From Nanobdellota archaeon (lineage in GTDB: Archaea > Nanobdellota > Nanobdellia > Woesearchaeales > GW2011-AR4), in assembly GCA_022564635.1 (NCBI GenBank), contig JADFLA010000001.1, positions 7,041-71,040 on the forward strand: a stretch of 64,000 nt of DNA. Reading direction: 5' to 3'. Position 1 is the stretch's first letter. Each line of letters begins with the position of its first letter. The position numbers and the translations under genes are program-made. The notes beneath the pieces were generated by a model. That model had not been told where the DNA came from and did no database searches. It saw only the letters and a program-made list of their open reading frames with translations. Shown piece by piece: positions 561 to 58,217 of the stretch.

Positions 561-2354
561 TTATTTTTTCTGTTCATTTTTTCCTAATTTATTTTGTAGC
601 TTAAGTTTTTTCTCTTTTAGATCAGACATGCGTTCTCTGTATTTTAACATGAGCTTGTCATAATCATCTCTGCTTAAAGAATGATGCTTAAAATATTTCC
701 TTTGAGTATATTTTTGCATCTCGAAAGTCCTTTTTTCATCTTCAATTGATTTTTTTAAACTGGATTTCAAGTGGCTACGATGCCATACTGGTTGTGTGAC
801 GATGACAAGAACTATTGTTCCAATAATTATGGCATAACCATATCGCAACAACACGTTGTTGTAGAAAACTCTTGCTTTGAACTCAAAGTTACCAATAGCT
901 TCTACGCTTATAGCTTTCCTAGGTAATTTAACCGAATTTCCATAGATATCAGAAGCGTCAAGTTGCAAAGACTGAAGATCTACATCTTCTTGGGTAAACA
1001 AGTAAGAACTTGTGTAGATTCCTGGTTTGCGCTCTGTTAATTTAATTGTTTTTTCCCCTATTTTTAATAAGACATTTGCGTTTTCAACTACAGTGGCATC
1101 AGTATAGCCCAGACTAGCTTCAATATTTATTTTTTGTCCTGTAAAGAAATCTGTTGTTGTTGGCTTTGAAAGAGTTAGGATCATGGATGCTGGTCTGATT
1201 GTTACTGGAATTCTGCTTCCACCTGCTTTGGTAACATTATCTTTTGTTTTTATGGCTTGTACGCTAATGTACCATAAACCTAGAGGATCATTAGGACTTG
1301 TTTGGTATTCTGATGTGTATGTTCCCGGGCGTATTTCTTCAAGTGTTTTTATGTCTCCGAAAGGATTCTTGAAATCAACTATTGCACCTTCTAAAGGTTT
1401 TCCCTCATCCTTTACTTCTACTGTTATTGGTATTGAAGATCCTCTTTTATATTCTCCATCCTTTAATGGACTCAAAAATGTTACAGTATAGAAAGCAACT
1501 CCTTCTGGAGTTGAAACTGTTGTTGCAAGATTTGCAGTTCCCTCGTTACCATCTTCATCAGTTGCATGGATCTTAATATCCCACTTCCCATCAGGCTCAG
1601 CAAAACTTATTAGATGACTATCAATAAATTTTCCTTCATCGTCAGAAATTAGTGTTTTATTAAGAAGAAAATCTTCTGCAGAAACAGTTAGTTGTGCAGC
1701 AACATTTTTTATAGGTTCCTGATTAAAATAAGTCATATCCCCTGAAAATACAATCCGTTCTCCTTTGAAATACTCTTCTTTTCCCAAGGATGTACTGATA
1801 TAAATGGTAGGATCTACATTAATTAAAATTCTTTCTTCGTCATATGCTGCAGCTTGTCCTCTAAAAATAATAGCATATTCTCCTTTCTCAATCTCATTTC
1901 CAATAGTTACATTCGCTCCAAATATATTATAATCCATCCTGCCAAAATTGCTAACTAACTTAACAGTTCCAAAAAGTTCTGATTCTGCAGACATTTTTAC
2001 ATCAGAAACAAAACTATAGCCTCTAACCACTTTTGCAAGAATTGTAAGTATACCTCTTTTTATCGTGTCACCATCTTTAGGATTTTCTATAACTATTTTT
2101 ATTGGCCTAACACCTACACCTATAGTTGTTGTTTCTCCTCCAGTAGTTGTTGTTGTTCCATCAGTGCCTCCAGTGGTTGTAGAAGAAGTTGTAGTTCCAT
2201 CTGTGGTAGTTGTTCCAGGGACACCTTCATGGCCTTCTTTATGATGCAATCCTGTAGGACTATCCAGCGGTCTAAAGACAATAATAACAGCTGTTACTAT
2301 GATAATTAGAATTAGTACTGCACTTACATTCACCTCTTTTTTCATATTAAACAT
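561..2354 (-). CDS. cell-surface protein: N-terminal TM/signal anchor, Thr-rich stalk, large extracellular region, C-terminal TM plus charged coiled-coil tail
   Basis: hydrophobic N-terminus, TTTTDGTTTSSTTTGG low-complexity linker, C-terminal hydrophobic stretch followed by K/E-rich tail; no recognisable catalytic motif. Confidence 0.45.
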   Translation of the reverse strand: MFNMKKEVNVSAVLILIIIVTAVIIVFRPLDSPTGLHHKEGHEGVPGTTTTDGTTTSSTTTGGTDGTTTTTGGETTTIGVGVRPIKIVIENPKDGDTIKRGILTILAKVVRGYSFVSDVKMSAESELFGTVKLVSNFGRMDYNIFGANVTIGNEIEKGEYAIIFRGQAAAYDEERILINVDPTIYISTSLGKEEYFKGERIVFSGDMTYFNQEPIKNVAAQLTVSAEDFLLNKTLISDDEGKFIDSHLISFAEPDGKWDIKIHATDEDGNEGTANLATTVSTPEGVAFYTVTFLSPLKDGEYKRGSSIPITVEVKDEGKPLEGAIVDFKNPFGDIKTLEEIRPGTYTSEYQTSPNDPLGLWYISVQAIKTKDNVTKAGGSRIPVTIRPASMILTLSKPTTTDFFTGQKINIEASLGYTDATVVENANVLLKIGEKTIKLTERKPGIYTSSYLFTQEDVDLQSLQLDASDIYGNSVKLPRKAISVEAIGNFEFKARVFYNNVLLRYGYAIIIGTIVLVIVTQPVWHRSHLKSSLKKSIEDEKRTFEMQKYTQRKYFKHHSLSRDDYDKLMLKYRERMSDLKEKKLKLQNKLGKNEQKK

Positions 2355-5690: not shown

Positions 5691-6722
5691 TTATAGCTTA
5701 TACCTCAGTGTAGCTACAACGCTTCCATGTTTGTGAAGCTTTTCTAGAACTTCATTATTAGTTATAAACTCAACTTCAACAGAAGTTTTCTCTGCAAGCT
5801 CAATCATATTAATAATTATACTATTCTCTTCTGGAGTTTTTGCATAATAATCAGATGCTATAAGCAATGTATCTACAGCTCCTGTGCGCAAAGCTGTATG
5901 TATAATGCTATTTTCCTTTTCTGCCAGACCTTTCTTAACCCTAGCTTCTACTTTTTGAAGCTGCTGTAGCTCAAGCTGTTTCCTTAAATGGTCAAGTGCG
6001 TTTATAACCTTAGTTGTTATATTATCATCTGGAGTGGAAAAGTAAATGCCATCAATGATTCTTGTCTTTTTTCTTACATTCTTGTTTATGTATGATTGCA
6101 TAAATTCTTTCTTTGCCAAACCTGGACCTGCAAGAAGAATAAGTTCTATCTGAGTAAGATTAATGTTCTTTAAACGTTCTTTAACTTTATTGAAGAAATG
6201 CTTGATCTGCAAATCTCTAAGCCTTTCAAATCTTCCCTGACTCCAACCTCCTTTACTATGTTTTCCTTTGAGATAGGTCTTAATCTTAGCATGTTGTAAT
6301 ATATCCTTGCCTTTGTAATGTCGAATCATTGCTTCCTTATGGTCCAATACAATTAACAACACATCGTAGTTTATCTCAAGTATATCATGTAAAGGTTCTG
6401 TATATGGCTTTTTTCCAACTATATAAACTGGTGGCAATGCCTTTGATACAACAAACTCCTTAATAACTATATCCTCTTTAGCATTCCAACCAAAAATACA
6501 AATACTGCCATTATAAATTTTTTTGGATGCTAACCTTTTCTCAATAATAGCTTCTATTTCCTCAATCTCTGGCAATCTTTCAGTTTCCCTAAGAGTATTT
6601 ATCATGTTAGAGGCTTCGCTTATTGGGACATAAACAGAAACTACAGGTGAGTAAGATTGATTAAGTTCTTTAAGAAAACGATTTATTGAATACCACTCCT
6701 TTGGTAATAAGATATCTCTCAT
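5691..6722 (-). CDS. eRF1/aRF1-family protein, divergent: NIKS region absent, GGQ replaced by GGW
   Basis: Collinear with eRF1 domains N-M-C (SVYVPIS ~ SLIIPP; KGKHSKGGWSQGRFERLRD ~ KKHGRGGQSALRFARLR; C-terminal ...ATLRYKL ~ ...GGILRYRV). Codon TGG verified at the Q position. Confidence 0.7.
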   Translation of the reverse strand: MRDILLPKEWYSINRFLKELNQSYSPVVSVYVPISEASNMINTLRETERLPEIEEIEAIIEKRLASKKIYNGSICIFGWNAKEDIVIKEFVVSKALPPVYIVGKKPYTEPLHDILEINYDVLLIVLDHKEAMIRHYKGKDILQHAKIKTYLKGKHSKGGWSQGRFERLRDLQIKHFFNKVKERLKNINLTQIELILLAGPGLAKKEFMQSYINKNVRKKTRIIDGIYFSTPDDNITTKVINALDHLRKQLELQQLQKVEARVKKGLAEKENSIIHTALRTGAVDTLLIASDYYAKTPEENSIIINMIELAEKTSVEVEFITNNEVLEKLHKHGSVVATLRYKL

Positions 6723-45556: not shown

Positions 45557-45919
45557 TCAACCACAAATATCCATAAATTCTTTAGGAGAAACAATTTTTG
45601 TATTTCCAAACTTTTTAAGTTTCAGTAGATGTTTATTCCCAGAAACAATATAGTCTGCATTAATTCTTGCAGAACATCTTAATATCATATCATCATCAGG
45701 GTCTTCTTTAACGACATTTCCAATATATTTAGGAGCGACAATTTTAGCATAAGTTAAGATCAAGTTGATTTGCCTTTTAATCATTTCTTCTGGTTCATCA
45801 AAATCTCTTCTCATAACTTTCTCTACATCTTTAAGAATTTCTAAAGTGATAAAGACTTGAATTTTCTTGTCTATTGCTTTTTCTACAATCATATGTGGAT
45901 TTCCAAGTTCCCAGAACAC
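45557..45919 (-). CDS. PIN-domain (VapC-like, TIGR00305-type) toxin, N-terminally truncated (first catalytic Asp region missing; GTG/internal ATG start only)
   Basis: …IVAPKYIGNVVKEDPDDDMILRCSARINADYIVSGNKHLLKLKKFGNTKIVSPKEF collinear with PIN C-terminal two-thirds; upstream in-frame sequence is a palindromic element then a stop. Confidence 0.5.
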   Translation of the reverse strand: MFWELGNPHMIVEKAIDKKIQVFITLEILKDVEKVMRRDFDEPEEMIKRQINLILTYAKIVAPKYIGNVVKEDPDDDMILRCSARINADYIVSGNKHLLKLKKFGNTKIVSPKEFMDICG

Positions 45920-45920
45920 G

Positions 45921-45964
45921 CGAAAATCGAAGATTTTCGGTGTCCTGGAAATCTATGATTTCCA
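45921..45964. repeat. paired-palindrome element copy (minus orientation), ~89% identical to 52094..52137
   Basis: cgaaaatc-gaa-gattttcg + GGTGTCCTG + tggaaatc-tat-gatttcca; compensatory substitutions relative to copy D. Confidence 0.8.
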
Positions 45965-46004
45965 TGAGATAGAAGAAATGAATATGTTTGTGTCTAAAAC
46001 AACC

Positions 46005-51168: not shown

Positions 51169-51819
51169 TTATCGCTTCTCCATCCTAAAACAGCTGACAT
51201 CTATACGCTTAATTTTCCTTGTATGGTGCTTCATAGTAGCTTTCAAAGACCATTTAAAGTCAAAAATATCAGTAATTTCGAACCCATTATCCTTAGAAAA
51301 GCTCTCTACAAATTTTTTTGTTCCAGATTTATGAAAACTATAAACAATTTTACCAATTTCAAAGGCTTTTTTTAAAAAAATCTTGTCAATATGCCTCACT
51401 TTAGTTCCGAACGGAGGGTTCTGCACTACTAGATCTACCGGCTCATTAAAATCACCAATATCTTGACAGATAAATACTGCTTCTCCATCAATATTATACT
51501 CACTATTCAATTTTGCTAGGTTTTCCCTAGCTATACCTATCACTTTCTGATCTGAATCAACAAAATACACTTTATCAGCCCCCAAGACCAATAACCCAAT
51601 ACCTAGGATCCCAGTACCACACCCCAGATCAACACTCACTTTTACCATATCTCCCTTCATATACACATTCCATAACACTTCAGCAGCTATTTCAGGGTCT
51701 GTAGAGTACTGCTCAACCCTCACTTTTGGCCCTTTGAAGCCTTCTAAGCCTGACAATAGTACTGCCAAGGCCTTCTGTGACCCTATTTTGCCCTTATATG
51801 AACTCTCACTTTTTGCCAT
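51169..51819 (-). CDS. NPPF-motif class I methyltransferase (COG2263-like putative RNA/protein methylase)
   Basis: SAM motif VDLGCGTGILGI, catalytic VVQNPPFG. Confidence 0.7.
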   Translation of the reverse strand: MAKSESSYKGKIGSQKALAVLLSGLEGFKGPKVRVEQYSTDPEIAAEVLWNVYMKGDMVKVSVDLGCGTGILGIGLLVLGADKVYFVDSDQKVIGIARENLAKLNSEYNIDGEAVFICQDIGDFNEPVDLVVQNPPFGTKVRHIDKIFLKKAFEIGKIVYSFHKSGTKKFVESFSKDNGFEITDIFDFKWSLKATMKHHTRKIKRIDVSCFRMEKR

Positions 51820-52093
51820 TTTTACCCTATTTTAGCCATTATTTGACGCTCTAAAGCCCCTTCTGAACCCTTCACATTTGATACATTTTTGACCTTTTCC
51901 AGGCCTTCAAAAGCCTTTATGAGCAACTTACTTTCAGGGCTCTTAAAACCACTAATTCCATTGAATTTAAAAACCTTCATTTTTGATCCAAATTTTTGGA
52001 TTACTGATCCATAATTTTTTCTAAAATTTTTTATAATTAATTTTTAATTTACCATTAATTTATTTTTTATTATCAAATTTTTTAATGAATTCA

Positions 52094-52137
52094 TGAAAAT
52101 CGTAGATTTTCAGGACACCAAAAATCTTTGATTTTTG
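52094..52137. repeat. paired-palindrome element copy (plus orientation)
   Basis: tgaaaatc-gta-gattttca + GGACACC + caaaaatc-ttt-gatttttg, followed by GCGTGTT; near-identical to reverse complement of 45921..45964. Confidence 0.8.
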
Positions 52138-52196
52138 CGTGTTTTATTATTGTTTTTATTATTGAATTATCCTTTTTTTAATCTCTTTCCAGTCTC

Positions 52197-52317
52197 ATTC
52201 CCACTTAATTCCCATCATATTCCCAATATAATCCCATTTTATTCCCAAATATTTAAACTTTTCGTCTTATATCATTCCCAAATATGTCCCATTATATTCC
52301 CAATATAGTCCCAGAAA
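52197..52317 (+). repeat. 11-bp iteron array: nine ATTCCCAaTAT-like units in two clusters (5 + 4) on a strict 11-bp phase, 45 bp upstream of 52358
   Basis: CCCA cores at 52200, 52211, 52222, 52233, 52244, then 52277, 52288, 52299, 52310 (gap = 3 x 11); two pairs of units identical. Confidence 0.8.
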
Positions 52318-52357
52318 AACGAAATATTTAAATAAAATCTAATATAATAATACAATT

Positions 52358-53002
52358 ATGTTCGGAATTAAGATACAATCAAGCACTGATAAAAAACTAT
52401 CTCAAATGCAAAACCTTTTGATGAGATCCTTTTCTAATGTAAAAAATGACACCCAAAAACTCTTCCAATGGCTTAACCACATACATCAAAAAAATCTAGA
52501 CCAAGATAACCAGATAAAGCAGCTACAGCTAGAGCTGTCCTACATCCCAAAAAAACCAGAGGACATCAGAAAGATAATAGACAGCTATTATTCTTTTGAC
52601 AATCTTACAGAGAGGATAAAGATGCTAAATGAGAGGATAGACAGCATATCTGGAGGAAGAAGTGAGACTTACACACAAGCAATGCATCCAGAAATCAGCG
52701 AAATAGAATCCCGACTAACACAGCTAGAAGAGCAAAAAAAAGCAACAATAAGGGAAAAAGTAGTAAAAAGAGTCACAAGAAACTCAAAAGAATACGTAAA
52801 GCAACTAATGCTCTCCTACATTAGAAAATACACCCAAATAGGAGCCTTACAGCTAAAGGACATGATAGTTTATGACCAGGGTTTGTGCTCAAAAAGCTCA
52901 TTTTACAGGCTTTTAGACGAGATTGAAGCCCTAGATGATATAGGGATAGTAAAGAAAGGCAAGCAAAAGTACTATCTTTATAAACAAATAAAAGAGCAAT
53001 AA
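52358..53002 (+). CDS. hypothetical coiled-coil protein with C-terminal winged-helix-like domain
   Basis: heptad-rich N-terminus; C-terminal …LCSKSSFYRLLDEIEALDDIGIVKKGKQKYY wHTH-like. Confidence 0.4.
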   Translation: MFGIKIQSSTDKKLSQMQNLLMRSFSNVKNDTQKLFQWLNHIHQKNLDQDNQIKQLQLELSYIPKKPEDIRKIIDSYYSFDNLTERIKMLNERIDSISGGRSETYTQAMHPEISEIESRLTQLEEQKKATIREKVVKRVTRNSKEYVKQLMLSYIRKYTQIGALQLKDMIVYDQGLCSKSSFYRLLDEIEALDDIGIVKKGKQKYYLYKQIKEQ

Positions 53003-53070: not shown

Positions 53071-53637
53071 GTGGTAATGATTTTTGACGAGTTTTTCAAG
53101 CAAAGAAAGCGCTATTTCTCAAAAAAGCCAAAAAACAACGATCTTGAGCTAAAAGAAAAATTAAAAGGCATTAAAAAGGAATTAAACGGGCATTTAGACG
53201 CTATTAACGAAAACACAAGCGAGATACAAACAAGCTATGAGTGCATGAATGAGATCAATGACAAGTTAGAAAAATTGACAGAAAGGGTAGAGGCAATAGA
53301 AATTTACCTCCAACAATACTCAAATTTCAACGCTGTAGAAAAAAGCTTTGACATAAAACCATTAACAAAAACAGAACAACATGTTTTCCTAGTTATTTAT
53401 GCCTTAGAGGACGAAAAAGGCCTTGTTTCTTATCCAGATATAATCAAAAAAACTGGTTTGCCCAGCTATGTTGTAAGTGAGTATATCGCAAGATTAGTAG
53501 AAAAAGGAATTCCATTATTAAAGAAATATGTAAATAACTTATCATATATAAAACTGAACCCCGAGTTTAAACGCTTGCAAGCAAAAGAAAATATCCTGAT
53601 GATAGACACAGCACAAAAAGAATTGGTTAATTTTTAA
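53071..53637 (+). CDS. hypothetical coiled-coil protein with C-terminal winged-helix-like domain (similar architecture to upstream gene)
   Basis: coiled-coil N-terminus; …LTKTEQHVFLVIYALEDEKGLVSYPDIIKKTGLPSYVVSEYIARLVEKG wHTH-like. Confidence 0.4.
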   Translation: MVMIFDEFFKQRKRYFSKKPKNNDLELKEKLKGIKKELNGHLDAINENTSEIQTSYECMNEINDKLEKLTERVEAIEIYLQQYSNFNAVEKSFDIKPLTKTEQHVFLVIYALEDEKGLVSYPDIIKKTGLPSYVVSEYIARLVEKGIPLLKKYVNNLSYIKLNPEFKRLQAKENILMIDTAQKELVNF

Positions 53638-53827
53638 CTTAAAATTTTTAATCAGTTCTTAAAACTTTTAATTCACACAATTCTTATATATTTTAGTTAT
53701 TGATTAAATATTTTAATTATTCTTAATACATTAATTTCTATATTGAAAAATAAAATTTAGACTATTGGAACTGAACTATTACTAGATCAGTAAAAACATA
53801 GAAACTTATTTTTGAGTATATATTGTG

Positions 53828-54574
53828 TTAATACAAATCCCTAAAGCTGAAAGAACCGTACAGATTAGTCCGTCTAAATTGAGAAACTAATGCCCTTAAC
53901 TCTTCTACACCAGGGGTTTCGTCAGAAGCTGACTCTAATGCTTCTTCCGCAAATCCTATTTGTCTAGAGAAATCAGTAGGATCTGTAAGGACTTTTGGTT
54001 CATATATACCAGACCCTGGTTTTATGTAAGATCTTACTAAATCCATAAATTCCCTTACAATATGTGAAAAATCACCATTATCCCTTACTTCATCTGTAAT
54101 ATCTGCCCAACTCCCCCTTATTTGCTCACTACCTTCTCTTTCTAATAATTTTTCTGGTTGATAAATCTGCGGATCAAACTTACTTCCCTTTTCCGTCATA
54201 GTATAAAATTTTTCCGCCATTTCTTCAATTGTTGGTGTAACAAAAACAGAAAAACCAAAAAAAGGACCTCTCACATCATCTTTAGATTCTGCCCCATAAG
54301 ACATAGGCCTTTGTAAGCCCCACAGTACATTAAAAAGTCCTCTATGAGATTCTTGATGATCAGAAAATTCAGTTCCAAATGCATTTTCAGCTCTCAAGTC
54401 ACAAAGTTCCTGATAAAAAGTAGCCATTCCACGAGCATCTTGGATCGTTCCTAATTTTTGAGCCAAATCAGGCATACCCTTTTCTTTTAAATAGTCCATT
54501 GGCTTATTTAATATAGTTCCTTGATCTTGAGTCATTGTATTTTCACCCCAATACGAACCATTAAAGTATAGCAA
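53828..54574 (-). CDS. hypothetical protein (GC-rich, probably acquired)
   Basis: ORF only; composition ~40% GC vs ~28% flanks. Confidence 0.35.
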   Translation of the reverse strand: MLYFNGSYWGENTMTQDQGTILNKPMDYLKEKGMPDLAQKLGTIQDARGMATFYQELCDLRAENAFGTEFSDHQESHRGLFNVLWGLQRPMSYGAESKDDVRGPFFGFSVFVTPTIEEMAEKFYTMTEKGSKFDPQIYQPEKLLEREGSEQIRGSWADITDEVRDNGDFSHIVREFMDLVRSYIKPGSGIYEPKVLTDPTDFSRQIGFAEEALESASDETPGVEELRALVSQFRRTNLYGSFSFRDLY

Positions 54575-54953
54575 CTATTTAAATCTTTCGTTTTTGTAGC
54601 CACAGTAAAGTGGTGAATAAAGTATCAAAATTAAAGGGTGGGCGGAGGCTTGAGTCATTCACTCAGTTCTGAGCACGGTGGTGGGTAACATTATTATTTT
54701 TATTGAATTTTAATTATTGTAAGCATTATCAACTTTACACTCAAATGCAACATTTTAGATAAAAAATCCAACTTTCACTTCAAAATCAACATCAGCAATG
54801 GAAAAATTTTATTGTAGCCTTGCTTAATCCTCAAAAACTAAAAATCTAATGCAAAAATATTTATACTCATTCCAATAAGGCTGTTAACACGTTCCAATAA
54901 GGGAACCCATACTGGAATGGTTAAAGGTCAAAAATTCGTAGGTTTTAAGGGCT

Positions 54954-55688
54954 ATGACTGAAAAAGTAGGCATTTATGTGCGTGTTTCAACTGAGGAGCA
55001 AGCAAAAGAAGGAATAAGTGTAGATGCGCAGATAGATAGGTGTAAGGCTTTTTGTAAAGCAAGGGCTTGGAAAGTATTTAGAATTTATACTGATGCTGGT
55101 TATTCAGCTGGATCAATGGATAGGCCTGCATTGAAGAATTTGTTTGATGATATTACCAATAAAAAAATTAATATTTTGCTGGTTTACAAAATTGACAGAT
55201 TTTCAAGAAAACTAAAGGATTTGATATCTATATTGGAGGACCTACAATCAAAAGGTGTTAACTTCACATCTGTTACTGAGCAGATCGATACAACAACAGC
55301 AATGGGGGAAGCCTTTTTCCAGATAATTGGTGTTTTTGCGCAACTTGAAAGAGGTATGGTAAAAGAAAGAGTTGAAATGGCTTTTGATAAAAAGATTAGT
55401 TCTGGTGAAATTCTTAATAGGGCTCCAATGGGTTATGTTTATAGAAATGGCAAGCTTTTCGTAAATGAGGAAGAGGCAGAGAAAGTTAGAGAAATCTTCA
55501 ATATGTGGGCAACTGGGATCAATTACAAAGAAATAGCTAAAAAATTCAATATTCCGGTTTCAACATTGTATGAAATTGTTAAGAATCCTACTTATATCGG
55601 AAAAGTAAAATATAGGAATAAATTATATGGTGGGGTTCATAAAGGCATTATTGATGAAGAATTATTCCAAAAAGTAAATGGTAAGTAA
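54954..55688 (+). CDS. serine recombinase (resolvase catalytic domain + partial recombinase domain; probably 3'-truncated large serine recombinase)
   Basis: GIYVRVSTEEQ (catalytic Ser), DRFSR, then recombinase-domain start APMGYVYRNGKLFVNEEEAEKVREIFNMW…; lacks zinc-ribbon/coiled-coil C-terminus. Confidence 0.75.
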   Translation: MTEKVGIYVRVSTEEQAKEGISVDAQIDRCKAFCKARAWKVFRIYTDAGYSAGSMDRPALKNLFDDITNKKINILLVYKIDRFSRKLKDLISILEDLQSKGVNFTSVTEQIDTTTAMGEAFFQIIGVFAQLERGMVKERVEMAFDKKISSGEILNRAPMGYVYRNGKLFVNEEEAEKVREIFNMWATGINYKEIAKKFNIPVSTLYEIVKNPTYIGKVKYRNKLYGGVHKGIIDEELFQKVNGK

Positions 55689-56035
55689 CCGTATCCAAGC
55701 GATTTTCATGATAGTCTATTAAATCTGATAAGATTTTTCCTTATAAGTCCAGGCAAAGCAAAAGTTCACATAATATACATTAGATGACGTTTTGCCCTGC
55801 CACGATTAATAGAACATTCTTTTCAGAACGAATAGACTGATAGATTATGAGGTTTGATATATTGATTACAATACGAAAATTACAATAATTCATTAAATTT
55901 TGATTCAATAAAAAAATTACAATGATCCTATCATGTCGTCATTCCACCACCCCCACCTTTTTATTTACTACTAAATAATGATTAAAAATAGAAAGATTTA
56001 TATACTAGTAGATCCTATTTCTTACAGTCAACAAA

Positions 56036-56959
56036 ATGTCAGAAACTGAAGATCTAAAACGTAGAGTAATGGAAGAGTATGTACAAATTATTAGCCCCGT
56101 TGTTGGGGAAAATACGGCATTAGCTAATAGATTAACTTCCGACTTAGATGGAATTCTTGATAGAGAATTAGGAAAATTACCCGATAATGAAGCTATTAAA
56201 GAACCAGCTGAAGTGTCGCAGTTAGATTATTCAAGATTAGGCCCTGTTACAAATGATGGCAATAGATATACTCTTGCTCAAATTTTGGAAATGCGTATCG
56301 ACATATTTGCTGAAAGACATACTGGGATTGATGGTACAGATAAAAGTATTTTGCATAATTATTTTAATCAAGTAGCGAAAGGTCATATTAAGGGTACCTC
56401 GTGGGATAGGGCAATGTATGGTTCTCGAGCAGATCATGAGAGAATAAAAAATCCAATTAGTAAAACTAAGGAACAAGCATTAGACTTTATTGGAGTTACA
56501 GAAGAAATGTTTGATACAGCTAATGAATTCTTGCAAAAGCATTATGGCATTAGCCTAGGGACAAAGATTGATGAAGTAGAATTAGCTCGAAATAAAGAAC
56601 TTACAGATGCACGAGAACTGTACACGACACAAGGCCCGTGTATGGAAGACGGACAGAGATATACAACTGCTCAAATCTTGGGTATGGACCTAAATTATTT
56701 TTTACGAACACATAGGGATTCTTTGAAACAAGAGGGTGTACAATCATTAATGACCAAATACTTTCACCAAGTAGATAGTCACAGCCAGCTAGAATGGGGA
56801 GACCTAACAAAAGTTATAGATGCAATTCAAATCTCGCCATTTGATAGCGGAAACCTGCCGGGCATAGGTAATACAACAATTGAAAAAGTTAACCAATATT
56901 TCCAAAACAATTACGACATCACATTAGGAACAAAATTTAGGTTGAGTTCACATAATTAA
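56036..56959 (+). CDS. hypothetical protein with two-fold internal repeat, GC-rich, bracketed by 15-bp inverted repeats
   Basis: repeat units NDGNRYTLAQILEMRIDIF…NYFNQV / EDGQRYTTAQILGMDLNYF…KYFHQV; no catalytic motif recognised. Confidence 0.4.
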   Translation: MSETEDLKRRVMEEYVQIISPVVGENTALANRLTSDLDGILDRELGKLPDNEAIKEPAEVSQLDYSRLGPVTNDGNRYTLAQILEMRIDIFAERHTGIDGTDKSILHNYFNQVAKGHIKGTSWDRAMYGSRADHERIKNPISKTKEQALDFIGVTEEMFDTANEFLQKHYGISLGTKIDEVELARNKELTDARELYTTQGPCMEDGQRYTTAQILGMDLNYFLRTHRDSLKQEGVQSLMTKYFHQVDSHSQLEWGDLTKVIDAIQISPFDSGNLPGIGNTTIEKVNQYFQNNYDITLGTKFRLSSHN

Positions 56960-57431
56960 TCTTAATTCTACTATCAAACCTCATAATCACTTCTCAGCTT
57001 CGCAAAAAGTATTGAACTTTTTACGCAGAGCTCTTCGAGACCTTTTTGTTCCAAAAAGTCGCTGAGAACAAGATACGGCAGGGCAAAACGTGTAACCCCT
57101 TCGGGCATCTAATGCACGCTTTATGGTTCGCTCCTTGTTCGCTCTGAGCTCACAATCTCGTTCAACCTACGTTTTTCTCAACTCTAAAAAAATTCCCACT
57201 CTACAACTTGTGGAATGCCTCAAGTTGTGAGGGCAATTTTATTGAGGAGAAAAACATCATAAAGCTTCCCATTAGGCGAACATTTTGAACTCCACTTTGT
57301 GTTTAATCTACTGATTTAAACCGTAATTTTAGCTTTACCGGTTTCGCAAAAAATTAAGATTTTTTACGTAAACCTTACAGGACGTTTTTCTTTTAACGGT
57401 TCTTTGAGATTACGGAATGTGTGTAAGATAT

Positions 57432-57698
57432 TTAATCCATCTTCAAAAATTCATCAATATATTCCATTATTTTCTCTTTCTTATCCAAATTGATAGACAC
57501 CTGTTTTCCATAACCTGTTTTCTTCAAATGTAATATTCCTTCTTTGATTAATTCTTGTGACATATCTTTGGTTCTTCCTCTCACTTCTGGTGAAAAACCT
57601 TTTGATAAATTATCTAACGCTGTATGACTATGTTCAAACTTTCCCTTACGAGTTAATTTATGCAATATCTTTCCTTTAATTTGATTATCAGTCCACAT
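57432..57698 (-). CDS. small wHTH-like protein (paralogue of 15603..15872), divergent partner of regulator
   Basis: IKGKILHKLTRKG…HTALDNLSKG…TKDMSQELIKEGILHLKKTGYGKQVSINLDKKEK collinear with 15603 product. Confidence 0.45.
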   Translation of the reverse strand: MWTDNQIKGKILHKLTRKGKFEHSHTALDNLSKGFSPEVRGRTKDMSQELIKEGILHLKKTGYGKQVSINLDKKEKIMEYIDEFLKMD

Positions 57699-57727
57699 TA
57701 AAAGTCCACCAAAATAGACTTTGAAAG

Positions 57728-57747
57728 GTAAAGTTTATATACTTTAC
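57728..57747. promoter_or_regulatory. divergent promoter/operator: GTAAAGT-ttatat-ACTTTAC dyad with TATA-like centre, 26 nt upstream of 57767 start
   Basis: 7-bp perfect inverted arms flanking tttatata in the 68-bp intergenic gap between the divergent pair. Confidence 0.5.
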
Positions 57748-57766
57748 TAATAACATTGTTAGTAAG

Positions 57767-58099
57767 ATGGAAGAAAGATCTTTATTACTAAACTTAACAG
57801 GAGATATGCCTTTGTTCAAGATAATTGATTTTCTATTAGAAAATAAGGGAAGTGATTTTAGCAAATTAGACATATCAAAAGGTGCAGAAATTTCCAGAGC
57901 TACTTTATTCAACTACTGGAATGAAATTGAAAAACACGGAATTGTTAAAGTAACCAGAAGTTTTGGAAAAACAAAACTTTACATATTAAATGTTAAAAAT
58001 CCAGTTACACAGAAAATAATGGAATTAGAAAAAACACTTATTGCTGAAGCTATGAATAAAGCTTACAATAAAAAGAAAGAAATAATTGTAGAGAACTAA
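57767..58099 (+). CDS. winged-helix transcription regulator (paralogue of 15138..15467)
   Basis: LTGDMPLFKIIDFLL…DFSKLDISKGAEISRATLFNYW…TRSFGKTKLYILNVKNP. Confidence 0.6.
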   Translation: MEERSLLLNLTGDMPLFKIIDFLLENKGSDFSKLDISKGAEISRATLFNYWNEIEKHGIVKVTRSFGKTKLYILNVKNPVTQKIMELEKTLIAEAMNKAYNKKKEIIVEN

Positions 58100-58217
58100 T
58101 GCTACACACATTCTTAATTTTACTTTTGCTTTCAGCTCAAATTTTATTATTTCTCAAAGAACCTAAGAAACATACGGGGCTCATCTTGCCTACTGACTCT
58201 AAAATTATTCCAAAAAC

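What the first reader, a model, noticed from the sequence alone, without database searches (positions are those of the whole stretch)
52197..52317. Strictly 11-bp-phased iteron array (5 + 4 copies of ATTCCCAaTAT) upstream of a coiled-coil/wHTH two-gene operon: candidate centromere, origin or cooperative operator of an integrated element
CCCA cores sit at 52200 + 11k for k = 0-4 and 7-10, and the 33-bp gap equals three missing units. Helical-repeat phasing over 120 bp puts all sites on one DNA face. Known examples of this architecture are plasmid partition centromeres, such as R1 parC with two clusters of five 11-bp iterons around a promoter, and iteron origins. The array lies between a paired-palindrome element at 52094-52137 and two consecutive genes encoding coiled-coil plus C-terminal winged-helix proteins. 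A serine recombinase follows 2 kb downstream. This suggests a remnant plasmid or integrated element carrying a segregation or replication-control module of an undescribed type, because no ParA/ParM/TubZ NTPase is present.
Basis: partly seen in the sequence, partly recalled or inferred. Interest (0 to 1): 0.7.

Follow-up and report, generated by a model that had tools for sequence, protein, structure and literature searches.

The report
Conserved 11-bp operator array, DPANN archaea
A strictly 11-bp-spaced row of nine TCCCA motifs is real and sits in front of the same two unknown DNA-binding genes in every related Woesearchaeota-type (DPANN) archaeal genome examined, so it is most likely their own chromosomal binding and control site, not a leftover plasmid or integrated element.

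Summary
CCCA cores sit at 52200+11k (k=0-4, 7-10), and shuffled sequence gives at most 4 in phase. The unit is 7 conserved bases, A[T/G]TCCCA, plus 4 AT-rich bases.

The "integrated element / plasmid remnant" reading is not supported. Both downstream proteins have hundreds of 60-93% identical homologues in Woesearchaeota/Nanoarchaeota MAGs. The order RpoL <- methyltransferase <- [array] -> protein 1 -> protein 2 recurs in all 15 sequences compared. No viral or plasmid relatives were found.

The array recurs upstream of protein 1 in essentially all 19 sequences. It is clear down to 31% protein identity and reduced to two units in L013. Of 141 adjacent TCCCA spacings, 100 are exactly 11 bp. The last unit starts 47-49 nt before the ATG in 12 of 16 cases. 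No TCCCA-N6-TCCCA pair occurs elsewhere in 245 kb.

Both proteins are a long helix plus a C-terminal winged helix. Protein 1's recognition helix (xSKSSFYR) is nearly invariant family-wide, as is TCCCA.

Best reading: a cooperative, one-face operator for these proteins that controls a leaderless promoter (P1) and a likely divergent promoter (P2) in the gap. A chromosomal centromere or organiser role remains open. An origin is unlikely. I rate it a new variant of a known kind.

The parts
52191..52197 (+). Left boundary motif AGTCTCA. It is a one-mismatch variant of the unit and overlaps unit 0 by one base. 'cAGTCTCAtTCCCA' recurs at the left edge of clusters in relatives.
   Evidence: The direct repeat 'cagtctcattCCCA' brackets the 37 bp that the window lacks relative to L001.
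52197..52251 (+). Cluster A: five 11-bp units (ATTCCCA x4, AATCCCA x1), with cores at 52200, 52211, 52222, 52233 and 52244.
   Evidence: Orthologous clusters of 3-6 units occur in the related loci.
52250..52264 (-). P2 (inferred): an archaeal BRE+TATA read on the minus strand (CGAAAAG-TTTAAATA), lying inside the inter-cluster gap and pointing left. Its TATA abuts the first unit of cluster A.
   Evidence: CGAAA-N1-4-TTTAAAT occurs only 3 times in 64 kb (0.2 expected), and this is one of them. AGACGAAAAGTTTAAATATT is conserved in about 10 of 16 orthologous gaps. No transcript evidence.
52274..52317 (+). Cluster B: four 11-bp units (ATTCCCA, TGTCCCA, ATTCCCA, AGTCCCA), with cores at 52277, 52288, 52299 and 52310.
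   Evidence: In 12 of 16 orthologous regions the last TCCCA starts 47-49 nt before the ATG.
52320..52335 (+). P1: BRE (CGAAA, 52320-52324) plus TATA box (TTTAAATA, 52328-52335). The TATA centre is 26.5 nt before the ATG, so the mRNA is leaderless or nearly so.
   Evidence: AAAACGAAATATTTAAATAAAA is nearly invariant in 14 of 16 loci. Many other genes of the window have a TATA-like box at a similar distance from the ATG.
52358..53002 (+). c2 (protein 1, 214 aa). It has a long N-terminal helix (residues 6-61), further helices, and a C-terminal winged helix (144-208) whose recognition helix DQGLCSKSSFYR is invariant. Predicted reader of the TCCCA unit.
53071..53637 (+). c3 (protein 2, 188 aa from the GTG; NCBI aa from the ATG at 53077). 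It has a long helix (23-83), a MarR/PadR-like winged helix (100-162) and a conserved C-terminal tail. It follows c2 in every locus.

Best explanation
The array is the chromosomal operator of a lineage-wide two-gene operon of Woesearchaeota-type DPANN archaea.

**Binding (inferred).**
- Each 11-bp unit has 7 conserved bases, A[T/G]TCCCA, and 4 AT-rich bases.
- Each unit is read by one winged-helix domain of c2: recognition helix xSKSSFYR in the major groove over TCCCA, and the basic wing (KKGKQK) in the AT-rich minor groove.
- All units point the same way and sit one helical turn apart. The proteins therefore stack head-to-tail on one DNA face.
- The long N-terminal helices of c2, and probably of c3, bundle alongside and make binding cooperative.

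**Promoter geometry.**
- Cluster B ends 6 nt upstream of the BRE of P1, the near-consensus leaderless promoter of c2-c3. This is the position of an upstream regulatory site.
- Cluster A abuts the TATA box of a second, leftward promoter-like element (P2) in the gap. It would cover that promoter's start site, which is the position of a repressing operator.

**Predicted outcome (inferred).** The loaded array shuts P2 and sets the level of P1, giving autoregulation.

**Shown versus inferred.**
- Shown: the array, its conservation, its exclusive linkage and orientation, its fixed position relative to BRE/TATA, the protein folds, and the co-invariance of helix and motif.
- Inferred: who binds, the stoichiometry, the sign of regulation, and P2 activity.
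For: 1. **Array.** It is real and non-random.
2. **Recurrence.** It recurs upstream of the c2 homologue in essentially all 19 sequences examined, at 31-100% protein identity. L013 keeps only two units. The orientation is always the same.
3. **Exclusivity.** Every TCCCA-N6-TCCCA in 245 kb lies in this intergenic region. TTCCCA is not enriched elsewhere in the window.
4. **Spacing.** 100 of 141 adjacent spacings are exactly 11 bp. The last unit starts 47-49 nt before the ATG in 12 of 16 regions.
5. **Selective conservation.** In the 14-sequence intergenic alignment only the units, the gap motif and P1 are conserved. The rest is unalignable.
6. **Folds.** Both proteins are a long helix plus a winged helix. 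Fold matches are to DNA-binding wHTH regulators and centromere-binding proteins.
7. **Co-invariance.** The c2 recognition helix is invariant in all 19 sequences and, allowing conservative changes, in about 135 of the 150 top 50%-identity cluster representatives. The DNA core TCCCA is likewise invariant.
8. **Promoters.** P1 and P2 match the rare CGAAA-N-TTTAAAT promoter pattern (3 per 64 kb, 0.2 expected). P2 is conserved in about 10 of 16 gaps.
9. **Precedents.** Winged-helix domains reading 7+4 = 11-bp direct repeats head-to-tail, with cooperative extension over up to 6-8 units, are documented for PhoP/PhoB (PMC2275107, PMC4832192). Two clusters of five 11-bp repeats flanking a promoter and serving as autoregulatory operator are documented for R1 parC (PMC2241845).
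Against: - There is no binding or transcript data of any kind. The organisms are uncultivated.
- P1 is already a near-consensus BRE/TATA, so why it would need an upstream activating array is unclear.
- P2 is absent or unrecognisable in about 6 of 16 loci (L007, L010, L011, L012, L079, partly L005), and no conserved product lies downstream of it.
- c3's helix 3 is variable, so its role is undefined.
- A parallel coiled-coil homodimer would favour palindromic rather than direct repeats, so head-to-tail stacking needs flexible linkers or a heteromer.
- c2 and c3 are about as conserved as RpoL. That is more than expected for a factor whose only target is its own promoter, so the array may serve a further function.
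- Only 245 kb was searched for other sites, and only 64 kb of this genome.
Confidence: 0.6

Rival explanations
1. Chromosomal centromere or organising site. The c2/c3-coated array is a segrosome-like or loading complex, working like ParR-parC, TubR-tubC or AspA. It would hand the chromosome to a motor or condensin encoded elsewhere, and autoregulation would be a by-product.
For: - The 5 + gap + 4 layout of 11-bp repeats with a promoter-like element in the gap matches R1 parC.
- It looks like a single site: none elsewhere in 245 kb.
- c2 and c3 are core genes, as conserved as RpoL.
- AspA and TubR appear among the fold matches.
- XerA, the chromosome-dimer resolvase, is the next gene in 10 of 15 loci.
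Against: - No ParA/ParM/TubZ-type NTPase or SMC gene lies in the conserved neighbourhood.
- The AspA and TubR matches are no better than generic MarR/ArsR/PadR matches (E about 1e-3 to 1e-1).
- The tight positional coupling of the last unit to the BRE/TATA is what a promoter element needs, not what a centromere needs.
- No conserved dif-like site lies nearby.
Confidence: 0.17
2. The array is bound by some other factor (another regulator, or a TBP/TFB paralogue). On this reading c2-c3 are merely the regulated genes and do not bind it.
For: - No direct evidence links c2 or c3 to the DNA.
- Extra conserved non-unit motifs (CTCGACGGTAAA, TTTTCGTCTTA, AGTCTCA) show that more than one specificity may be at work.
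Against: - Two DNA-binding-fold proteins are encoded immediately downstream in all 19 sequences.
- The recognition helix of c2 is frozen, as is the motif.
- Self-adjacent operators are the rule for such pairs.
Confidence: 0.12
3. Replication origin: iterons bound by a winged-helix initiator.
For: - There are phased direct repeats with a weak 22-bp super-period.
- AT-rich flanks are present.
- Plasmid Rep initiators are winged-helix proteins (textbook knowledge).
Against: - No Orc1/Cdc6, Rep or helicase gene lies in the conserved neighbourhood.
- There is no ORB-type dyad.
- The cumulative GC skew shows no inflection at 52 kb.
- The array sits exactly where promoter elements sit.
- No plasmid or viral relatives were found.
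Confidence: 0.04
4. Remnant plasmid or integrated element carrying its own segregation or replication-control module.
For: - A serine recombinase lies 2 kb downstream.
- A roughly 4.4-kb stretch (53.7-58.1 kb) is specific to this genome.
Against: - The array and c2-c3 lie outside that variable stretch.
- They occupy the same housekeeping context in all 15 sequences compared.
- Composition is uniform.
- No viral or plasmid homologues exist.
Confidence: 0.02
5. The repeats act as RNA, or are coding: a structured ncRNA, or the 57-aa ORF at 52135-52308.
For: - A mechanical ORF spans the array.
- P2 would transcribe part of cluster A.
Against: - An 11-bp period is out of frame with codons.
- Relatives differ by indels of 37, 38 and 12 bp.
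- Either strand of the array has only C-runs or only G-runs, so it cannot self-pair.
- There is no Rfam match.
Confidence: 0.02

Closest known systems
R1 plasmid parC / ParR (type II partition centromere and operator)
   Same: Both have two clusters of 11-bp direct repeats (5+5 in R1, 5+4 here). Both are separated by a short gap that holds promoter elements (39 bp in R1, 33 bp here). In R1 the repeats serve as the operator for the adjacent operon, with about one binding unit per 11-bp iteron and cooperative loading (PMC2241845).
   Different: ParR is a ribbon-helix-helix dimer, whereas c2 and c3 are coiled-coil plus winged-helix proteins. R1 has the ParM actin-like motor in the same operon, and none is present here. 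R1 is a plasmid, whereas this is a core chromosomal locus of an archaeal lineage. Here the main promoter (P1) lies outside the array, and only the inferred P2 lies in the gap.
PHO boxes of OmpR/PhoB-family regulators (PhoB, PhoP)
   Same: The unit anatomy matches: 11-bp direct-repeat units with about 7 conserved bases and about 4 spacer bases. They are read by winged-helix domains in tandem, with 2 to 8 units per operator, cooperative extension from core units, and loss of binding when a unit is shortened to 10 nt (PMC2275107, PMC4832192).
   Different: Those are bacterial response regulators with a receiver domain and large regulons. Here there is no receiver domain but a long coiled coil instead, two different proteins, nine or more units, and apparently a single site next to their own genes.
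TubR / tubC (type III partition) and pNOB8 AspA (archaeal centromere-binding protein)
   Same: These are winged-helix proteins that coat DNA cooperatively at or from a site next to their own operon. Both appear among the fold matches (3m8e, 4asn, 4rs8, 5k5o, 5k5q).
   Different: The matches are no stronger than to generic MarR/PadR/ArsR proteins. From textbook knowledge, not tested here, tubC units are 12 bp and AspA nucleates on a palindrome. Both of those systems have an adjacent NTPase (TubZ, ParA) and are plasmid-borne.
Archaeal autoregulators that bind just upstream of BRE or over TATA/TSS (e.g. Lrp-type Ss-LrpB, Ptr2; textbook knowledge)
   Same: They have regularly spaced sites next to their own BRE/TATA. 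Effect depends on position: activation from upstream of the BRE, repression from over or downstream of the TATA.
   Different: Those use a few palindromic boxes about 3 helical turns apart. None is known with 9-12 unidirectional 11-bp units or with a coiled-coil/wHTH pair.

Membership tests
R1-type parMRC partition locus | Two clusters of 11-bp direct repeats flanking a promoter core | tested here: met
   5 + 4 units and a 33-bp gap holding a BRE/TATA-like element on the minus strand. Activity of that promoter is inferred only.
R1-type parMRC partition locus | Ribbon-helix-helix ParR adaptor | tested here: not met
   AF2 models show a long helix plus a winged helix. There are no RHH or ParR Pfam hits.
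R1-type parMRC partition locus | Actin-like ParM NTPase in the operon | tested here: not met
   No such gene appears in the operon or in the conserved +/-6-10 kb neighbourhood.
R1-type parMRC partition locus | Carried on a plasmid or mobile replicon | tested here: not met
   Conserved housekeeping synteny in 15 sequences. No plasmid or viral homologues.
TubZRC (type III) / AspA-ParBA partition loci | Winged-helix centromere-binding protein homologous to TubR or AspA | tested here: inconclusive
   TubR and AspA appear among the Foldseek hits at E = 1.7e-3 to 0.1, on a par with MarR/ArsR/PadR. No sequence-level match to PDB chains.
TubZRC (type III) / AspA-ParBA partition loci | Adjacent TubZ GTPase or ParA ATPase | tested here: not met
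   Absent from the operon and its neighbourhood.
Archaeal oriC | ORB/mini-ORB dyad elements around an AT-rich unwinding element, next to orc1/cdc6 | tested here: not met
   The units are unidirectional with no dyad. No Orc1/Cdc6 among neighbours or among the 10 largest unassigned ORFs. No skew inflection.
Iteron-type plasmid origin | 17-22-bp iterons next to a Rep (WH1-WH2) initiator gene | tested here: not met
   No Rep family hit. The 22-bp super-period is weak and clade-specific. Chromosomal context.
OmpR/PhoB-type PHO-box operators | 11-bp direct-repeat units (about 7 conserved + 4 spacer bases) in tandem | tested here: met
   Logo of 133 units: A, T/G, T, C, C, C, A, then 4 variable bases. 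100 of 141 spacings are exactly 11 bp.
OmpR/PhoB-type PHO-box operators | Binder is a response regulator with receiver domain and OmpR-type wHTH (Trans_reg_C) | tested here: not met
   No Response_reg or Trans_reg_C hits. The architecture is coiled coil plus wHTH.
Archaeal BRE/TATA promoter (P1) | Purine-rich BRE directly upstream of an 8-bp TATA box about 26 nt before the start site | tested here: met
   CGAAA at 52320-52324 and TTTAAATA at 52328-52335, centred 26.5 nt before the ATG at 52358. Nearly invariant in orthologues. The start site itself is not mapped.
MarR family (for c3) | Pfam MarR/MarR_2 above the gathering score | tested here: not met
   MarR_2 scores 18.8 bits against a cut-off of 27. 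At fold level the top Foldseek matches are MarR-type (ZitR, AdcR, MepR; E about 1e-3).
Operator of c2/c3 (the claim made here) | Direct, sequence-specific binding of c2 and/or c3 to the units | not testable with these tools
   Only indirect support: exclusive linkage and co-invariance of the recognition helix and the motif.

The most novel reading that the evidence does not exclude
The array and the c2/c3 pair together form the chromosomal centromere or organising centre of Woesearchaeales-type DPANN archaea. On this reading it is a single-copy, ParR/TubR-like segrosome built from two new coiled-coil/winged-helix families. It would have no dedicated NTPase in cis. It would be placed beside the XerA dimer-resolution gene and would act through the long coiled coils on a motor, condensin or division protein encoded elsewhere, possibly even on the host cell of these episymbionts.
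Probability: 0.15. Interest if true: 0.85.

Novelty: new variant of a known kind. Interest (0 to 1): 0.55.

Why it matters
Non-coding elements conserved across an order-level archaeal radiation are rare and almost unstudied in DPANN archaea, which cannot be cultured.

This locus offers several things:
- **A defined DNA target.** It is about 120 bp long, with an invariant 5-bp core and an exact helical-repeat spacing.
- **Two candidate binders.** Two core proteins of unknown function with no Pfam family can be made recombinantly and tested in a day by EMSA or footprinting.
- **A model for archaeal wHTH filaments.** If the pair is a plain autoregulator, it shows how a winged-helix/coiled-coil filament reads unidirectional repeats next to a BRE/TATA.
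- **A possible DPANN segregation element.** If it is more than that, it would be the first cis-acting chromosome-segregation or chromosome-organisation element proposed for DPANN.
- **A possible marker.** The array's invariant core and fixed gene context might make it usable as a recognisable marker for this lineage in metagenomes; this was not tested.

Tried and rejected
- **Coding reading.** The mechanical 57-aa ORF at 52135-52308 is rejected. The 11-bp period is out of frame, and relatives differ by indels that are not multiples of three.
- **RNA reading.** There is no Rfam match in 51500-52600. Either strand of the array has only C-runs or only G-runs.
- **Small ORF 51822-51980(-).** It has no tblastn match in the 14 genome loci tested.
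- **Paralogy of c2 and c3.** None is detectable by BLASTP or by profile-profile comparison.
- **Sequence-level annotation.**
  - Pfam, NCBIfam and PHROGs give nothing above threshold for c2 or c3.
  - PDB sequence profiles give nothing significant.
- **Mobile-element test.** There are no relatives in viral contigs or plasmids.
- **Collection-wide pattern scan.** The pattern of four TCCCA at 11 bp was too permissive.
  - It therefore says nothing about extra sites. It did add four more c2-linked loci: L049, L079, L092 and L113.
- **dif search.** No conserved 11-6-11 inverted repeat, and no convincing match to the T. kodakarensis dif, occurs near XerA or the array.
- **Origin test.** No Orc1/Cdc6 was found among neighbours or large ORFs, and there is no skew inflection.
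- **T/G alternation.** A 22-bp super-period at unit position 2, as expected for an alternating c2/c3 heterodimer, holds only in the closest clade. It is not general.
- **C-terminal 'QKELVNF' of c3 as a PIP box.** It is not kept in distant homologues.
- **Literature.** Nothing on this array or these proteins was found in the searches made.
Full report
**1. The observation**

Window 52197-52317 holds nine copies of an 11-bp unit in two clusters. Five start at 52197, 52208, 52219, 52230 and 52241. Four start at 52274, 52285, 52296 and 52307. Their CCCA cores all fall at 52200+11k.

No other tetramer on the + strand reaches more than 6 phased copies in a 121-bp span. In 200 shuffles the best CCCA run was 1-2 in 198 shuffles, 3 in one and 4 in one. 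TCCCA-N6-TCCCA occurs exactly 7 times, all here. Tandem Repeats Finder sees period 11 and a slightly better period 22.

The conserved part of the unit is 7 bases. A logo of 133 units from 14 genomes gives A (88%), T/G/A (67/23/9%), T, C, C, C, A, followed by 4 variable AT-rich bases.

**2. Organism and context**

The window has 31.5% G+C and carries archaeal housekeeping genes: GatB-type amidotransferase, RpoL, an NPPF methyltransferase, ribonucleotide reductase and CTP synthase. The exact proteins are on record from a 'Nanoarchaeota archaeon' MAG, locus tags IH934_00395 and IH934_00400.

Both downstream proteins have hundreds of homologues at 60-93% identity, nearly all in Woesearchaeota/Nanoarchaeota bins, with adjacent locus tags in several. 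I call them c2 (52358-53002) and c3 (53071-53637).

Fourteen GTDB genome loci were fetched. With the window, all 15 sequences show the same order: a 167-aa protein <- RpoL <- methyltransferase <- [long intergenic region] -> c2 -> c3.

- In 10 of 15 the next gene is the archaeal Xer recombinase XerA (NF040815, 250 bits against a cut-off of 220 in L004).
- In the window, L011 and L012 a 244-aa serine recombinase sits there instead.
- A marine relative shows the wider frame: RNA_pol_L, methyltransferase, c2, c3, XerA, PAC2, then the S13-S4-S11-RpoD-L18e-L13-S9 operon.

Across the same genomes c2 and c3 are as conserved as RpoL. No relatives exist in the viral-contig or plasmid collections. This is a core chromosomal locus, not an integrated element. 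The recombinase and about 4.4 kb around it (53.7-58.1 kb) form a variable stretch downstream of the module.

**3. The array is conserved with the operon**

Upstream of every c2 homologue the same unit recurs on the same strand as c2. This holds for the 12 loci at 56-85% identity and for L049, L079, L092 and L113 at 46-80%. It also holds in L014 at 31% identity. L013 at 36% keeps only two units.

In 245 kb of window plus loci, every TCCCA-N6-TCCCA lies in this one intergenic region.

Over 16 regions there are 157 TCCCA and 141 adjacent spacings:

| Spacing (bp) | Count |
|---|---|
| 11 | 100 |
| 12 | 3 |
| 22 | 4 |
| 33 | 8 |

The gap between the two main clusters ranges from 32 to 55 bp, and is 33 bp in the window's clade. 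The last TCCCA starts 47-49 nt before the ATG in 12 of 16 regions.

In a 14-sequence alignment of the whole intergenic region, only three things are conserved: the units, a gap motif and the promoter. The methyltransferase-proximal half is unalignable.

Most relatives carry an extra distal mini-cluster (1-3 units) and a CTCGACGGTAAA motif that the window lacks. The window looks like a 37-bp deletion between two 'cagtctcattCCCA' direct repeats.

**4. Promoters**

*P1.* Directly after the last unit comes AAAAACGAAATATTTAAATAAAAT. CGAAA (52320-52324) reads as a BRE and TTTAAATA (52328-52335) as a TATA box. Its centre is 26.5 nt before the ATG at 52358, which implies a leaderless mRNA. Many other genes of the window also have a TATA-like box at a similar distance from the ATG. 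This P1 is nearly invariant in orthologues.

*P2.* The gap, read on the minus strand, is AGACGAAAAGTTTAAATATT-TGGGA. This is the same BRE+TATA pattern pointing left, with the first unit of cluster A abutting the TATA.

- CGAAA-N1-4-TTTAAAT occurs only three times in 64 kb (0.2 expected): P2, P1 and one site at 54577-54590.
- P2 is recognisable in about 10 of 16 gaps, including L113 at 46% identity.
- Its predicted start (about 52227, minus strand) lies inside cluster A.
- No conserved ORF or RNA family lies downstream.

P2 may be a distal promoter of the methyltransferase-RpoL operon or may make a short upstream transcript. It is inferred, not shown.

**5. The proteins**

AlphaFold2 with family alignments gives these models:

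| Protein | Helices | Winged helix | Mean pLDDT |
|---|---|---|---|
| c2 | 6-61, 67-77, 80-98, 111-141 | 144-208 | 76 |
| c3 | 23-83 | 100-162, plus two short C-terminal helices | 74 |

There is no Pfam, NCBIfam or PHROG family above threshold and no PDB sequence match. c2 and c3 are not detectably related to each other.

The c2 family comprises 391 clusters at 50% identity (E <= 1e-3) and shows no extra domains.

Within c2 the stretch DQGLCSKSSFYR (turn plus recognition helix) is invariant in 32 aligned homologues. Its CSKSSFYR part is unchanged in all 19 sequences, down to 31% overall identity. Allowing only conservative changes ([CAT]S[KR]S[ST]FYR), it is present in about 135 of the top 150 cluster representatives, and several of the other 15 differ only at the first position. 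An unchanging reading head paired with an unchanging TCCCA core is the best available indication that c2 reads the unit.

Helix 3 of c3 is variable. Its conserved parts are the long helix (LxxxNxNTxEIQ) and a C-terminal tail.

**6. Mechanism proposed**

The unit anatomy (7 conserved + 4 AT-rich = 11 bp, all in one orientation) is the one read head-to-tail by OmpR/PhoB-type winged helices. There, 2 to 8 units are filled cooperatively from core units, and a 10-nt unit binds poorly (PMC2275107, PMC4832192).

The cluster layout is that of R1 parC, where two sets of five 11-bp repeats flank the promoter and act as operator for the adjacent operon (PMC2241845).

I therefore propose that c2 winged helices occupy successive units on one DNA face. 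The coiled coils of c2, and probably c3, would zip the row together. The geometry gives two outcomes:

- Cluster A lies over P2's start, which favours repression.
- Cluster B lies 6 nt upstream of P1's BRE, which is an upstream regulatory position.

The sign of the effect on P1 is open. P1 is near-consensus, so repression by spreading is as plausible as activation.

**7. Rivals**

- *Centromere or organiser* is the main rival and is compatible with autoregulation, as in R1. In its favour: apparent single-site status, core-gene conservation and the XerA neighbour. Against it: no NTPase or SMC nearby, and the tight coupling of the array to the BRE/TATA.
- *Another factor binds* cannot be excluded without biochemistry.
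- *Origin, mobile element, RNA and coding* readings are each contradicted by specific tests, listed under tried and rejected.

**8. Comparison and novelty**

It works like a parC or PHO-box type phased direct-repeat operator. It is not a member of any of those families: fold, partner genes and replicon all differ, and c2/c3 belong to no described family. I found no description of the array or the proteins in the literature searches made. A 2026 preprint lists a winged-helix regulator among Nanobdellota single-copy core markers, but I could not verify that it is c2 or c3. I rate the finding a new variant of a known kind.

**9. Verdict**

- Interest is 0.55. This is a deeply conserved, cleanly defined cis element paired with two unknown core proteins of an uncultured lineage, and it is readily testable in vitro.

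Noticed in passing
window 52090-52141 (+) and 45917-45970 (-): The 'paired palindrome' next to the array is a roughly 52-nt two-hairpin element with a second, inverted copy 6.1 kb away. Two compensatory changes preserve both stems (GAAAATC/GATTTTC against GGAAATC/GATTTCC, and CAAAAATC/GATTTTTG against CGAAAATC/GATTTTCG). The two copies bracket gatB, the 167-aa gene, a 347-aa ORF unique to this genome, rpoL and the methyltransferase. The element is absent from the orthologous intergenic regions of the relatives aligned. Possibilities include a small structured RNA or DNA element, a MITE-like repeat, or a recombinase site.
   Followed up: partly
window 54954-55688; L011 8150-8887; L012 7468-8205; XerA e.g. 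L004 7521-8345: The slot just downstream of c3 holds the archaeal Xer recombinase XerA in 10 of 15 loci, in either orientation. In the window, L011 and L012 it holds a short (244-aa) serine recombinase instead, and no XerA is seen in those loci. This could be a functional replacement or a recombinase hot spot.
   Followed up: partly
window 53700-58100: About 4.4 kb between c3 and the next conserved genes is not shared with the other loci. It holds ORF 53828-54574(-), the serine recombinase, ORF 56036-56959 and two small HTH-like ORFs. None of these ORFs except the recombinase has a family hit. ORF 53828-54574 is preceded by the third CGAAA-N-TTTAAAT promoter of the window, at 54577-54590.
   Followed up: partly
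window about 52186-52200, compared with L001 about 1985-2030: The window lacks the distal mini-cluster and the CTCGACGGTAAA motif found in most relatives. It looks like a 37-bp deletion between two 'cagtctcattCCCA' direct repeats. The functions of the conserved non-unit motifs are unknown: CTCGACGGTAAA, the gap's TTTTCGTCTTA, and the AGTCTCA edge motif.
   Followed up: partly
window 51819-51900 (minus strand): Just upstream of the methyltransferase ATG the minus strand reads TCAAATAATGG CTAAAATAGGG TAAAAATGG CAAAAAGTG. These are roughly 10-bp-spaced G-N-[CT]-AAAA repeats that look like decayed copies of the gene's own start (ATGGCAAAAAGTG). Similar GGCTAAAA / CTCACTTTTAGCC repeats occur in L007, L008 and L011. 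A conserved AAGGTTTTTAAAAT about 150 nt upstream may be that gene's promoter.
   Followed up: no
c3, residues 166-188 (window 53566-53637): The C-terminal tail FKRLQAKENILMIDTAQKELVNF is almost invariant among close homologues. It ends in Q-x-x-L-x-x-F, which is reminiscent of a C-terminal PCNA-interacting box lacking the second aromatic residue. It is not kept in distant homologues, so it is probably a partner-binding tail of another kind.
   Followed up: partly
viral contig loci L135-L254 (e.g. L182, L189, L194, L226, L252): Many IMG/VR phage contigs carry unrelated arrays of 11-bp direct repeats, such as CTATCCCA[CT]GG in 4 to 12 or more copies, and TTTTCCCAAGA-type repeats. These are probably phage iteron or operator arrays.
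   Followed up: no
window 1-64000: ARAGORN finds no tRNA gene in the whole 64-kb window. This is unusual for that much prokaryotic sequence. It may reflect split or intron-containing DPANN tRNA genes, or simply local gene content.
   Followed up: no
L113 about 1860-1900 (minus strand) and L014 about 5870-5920: In distant relatives some units are inverted. In L113 a TGGGACT sits directly downstream of the P1 TATA, a repressor-type position. In L014 palindromic pairs (AGTCCCAttctGGGACT) and inverted units precede the BRE. The operator grammar therefore varies between clades.
   Followed up: no
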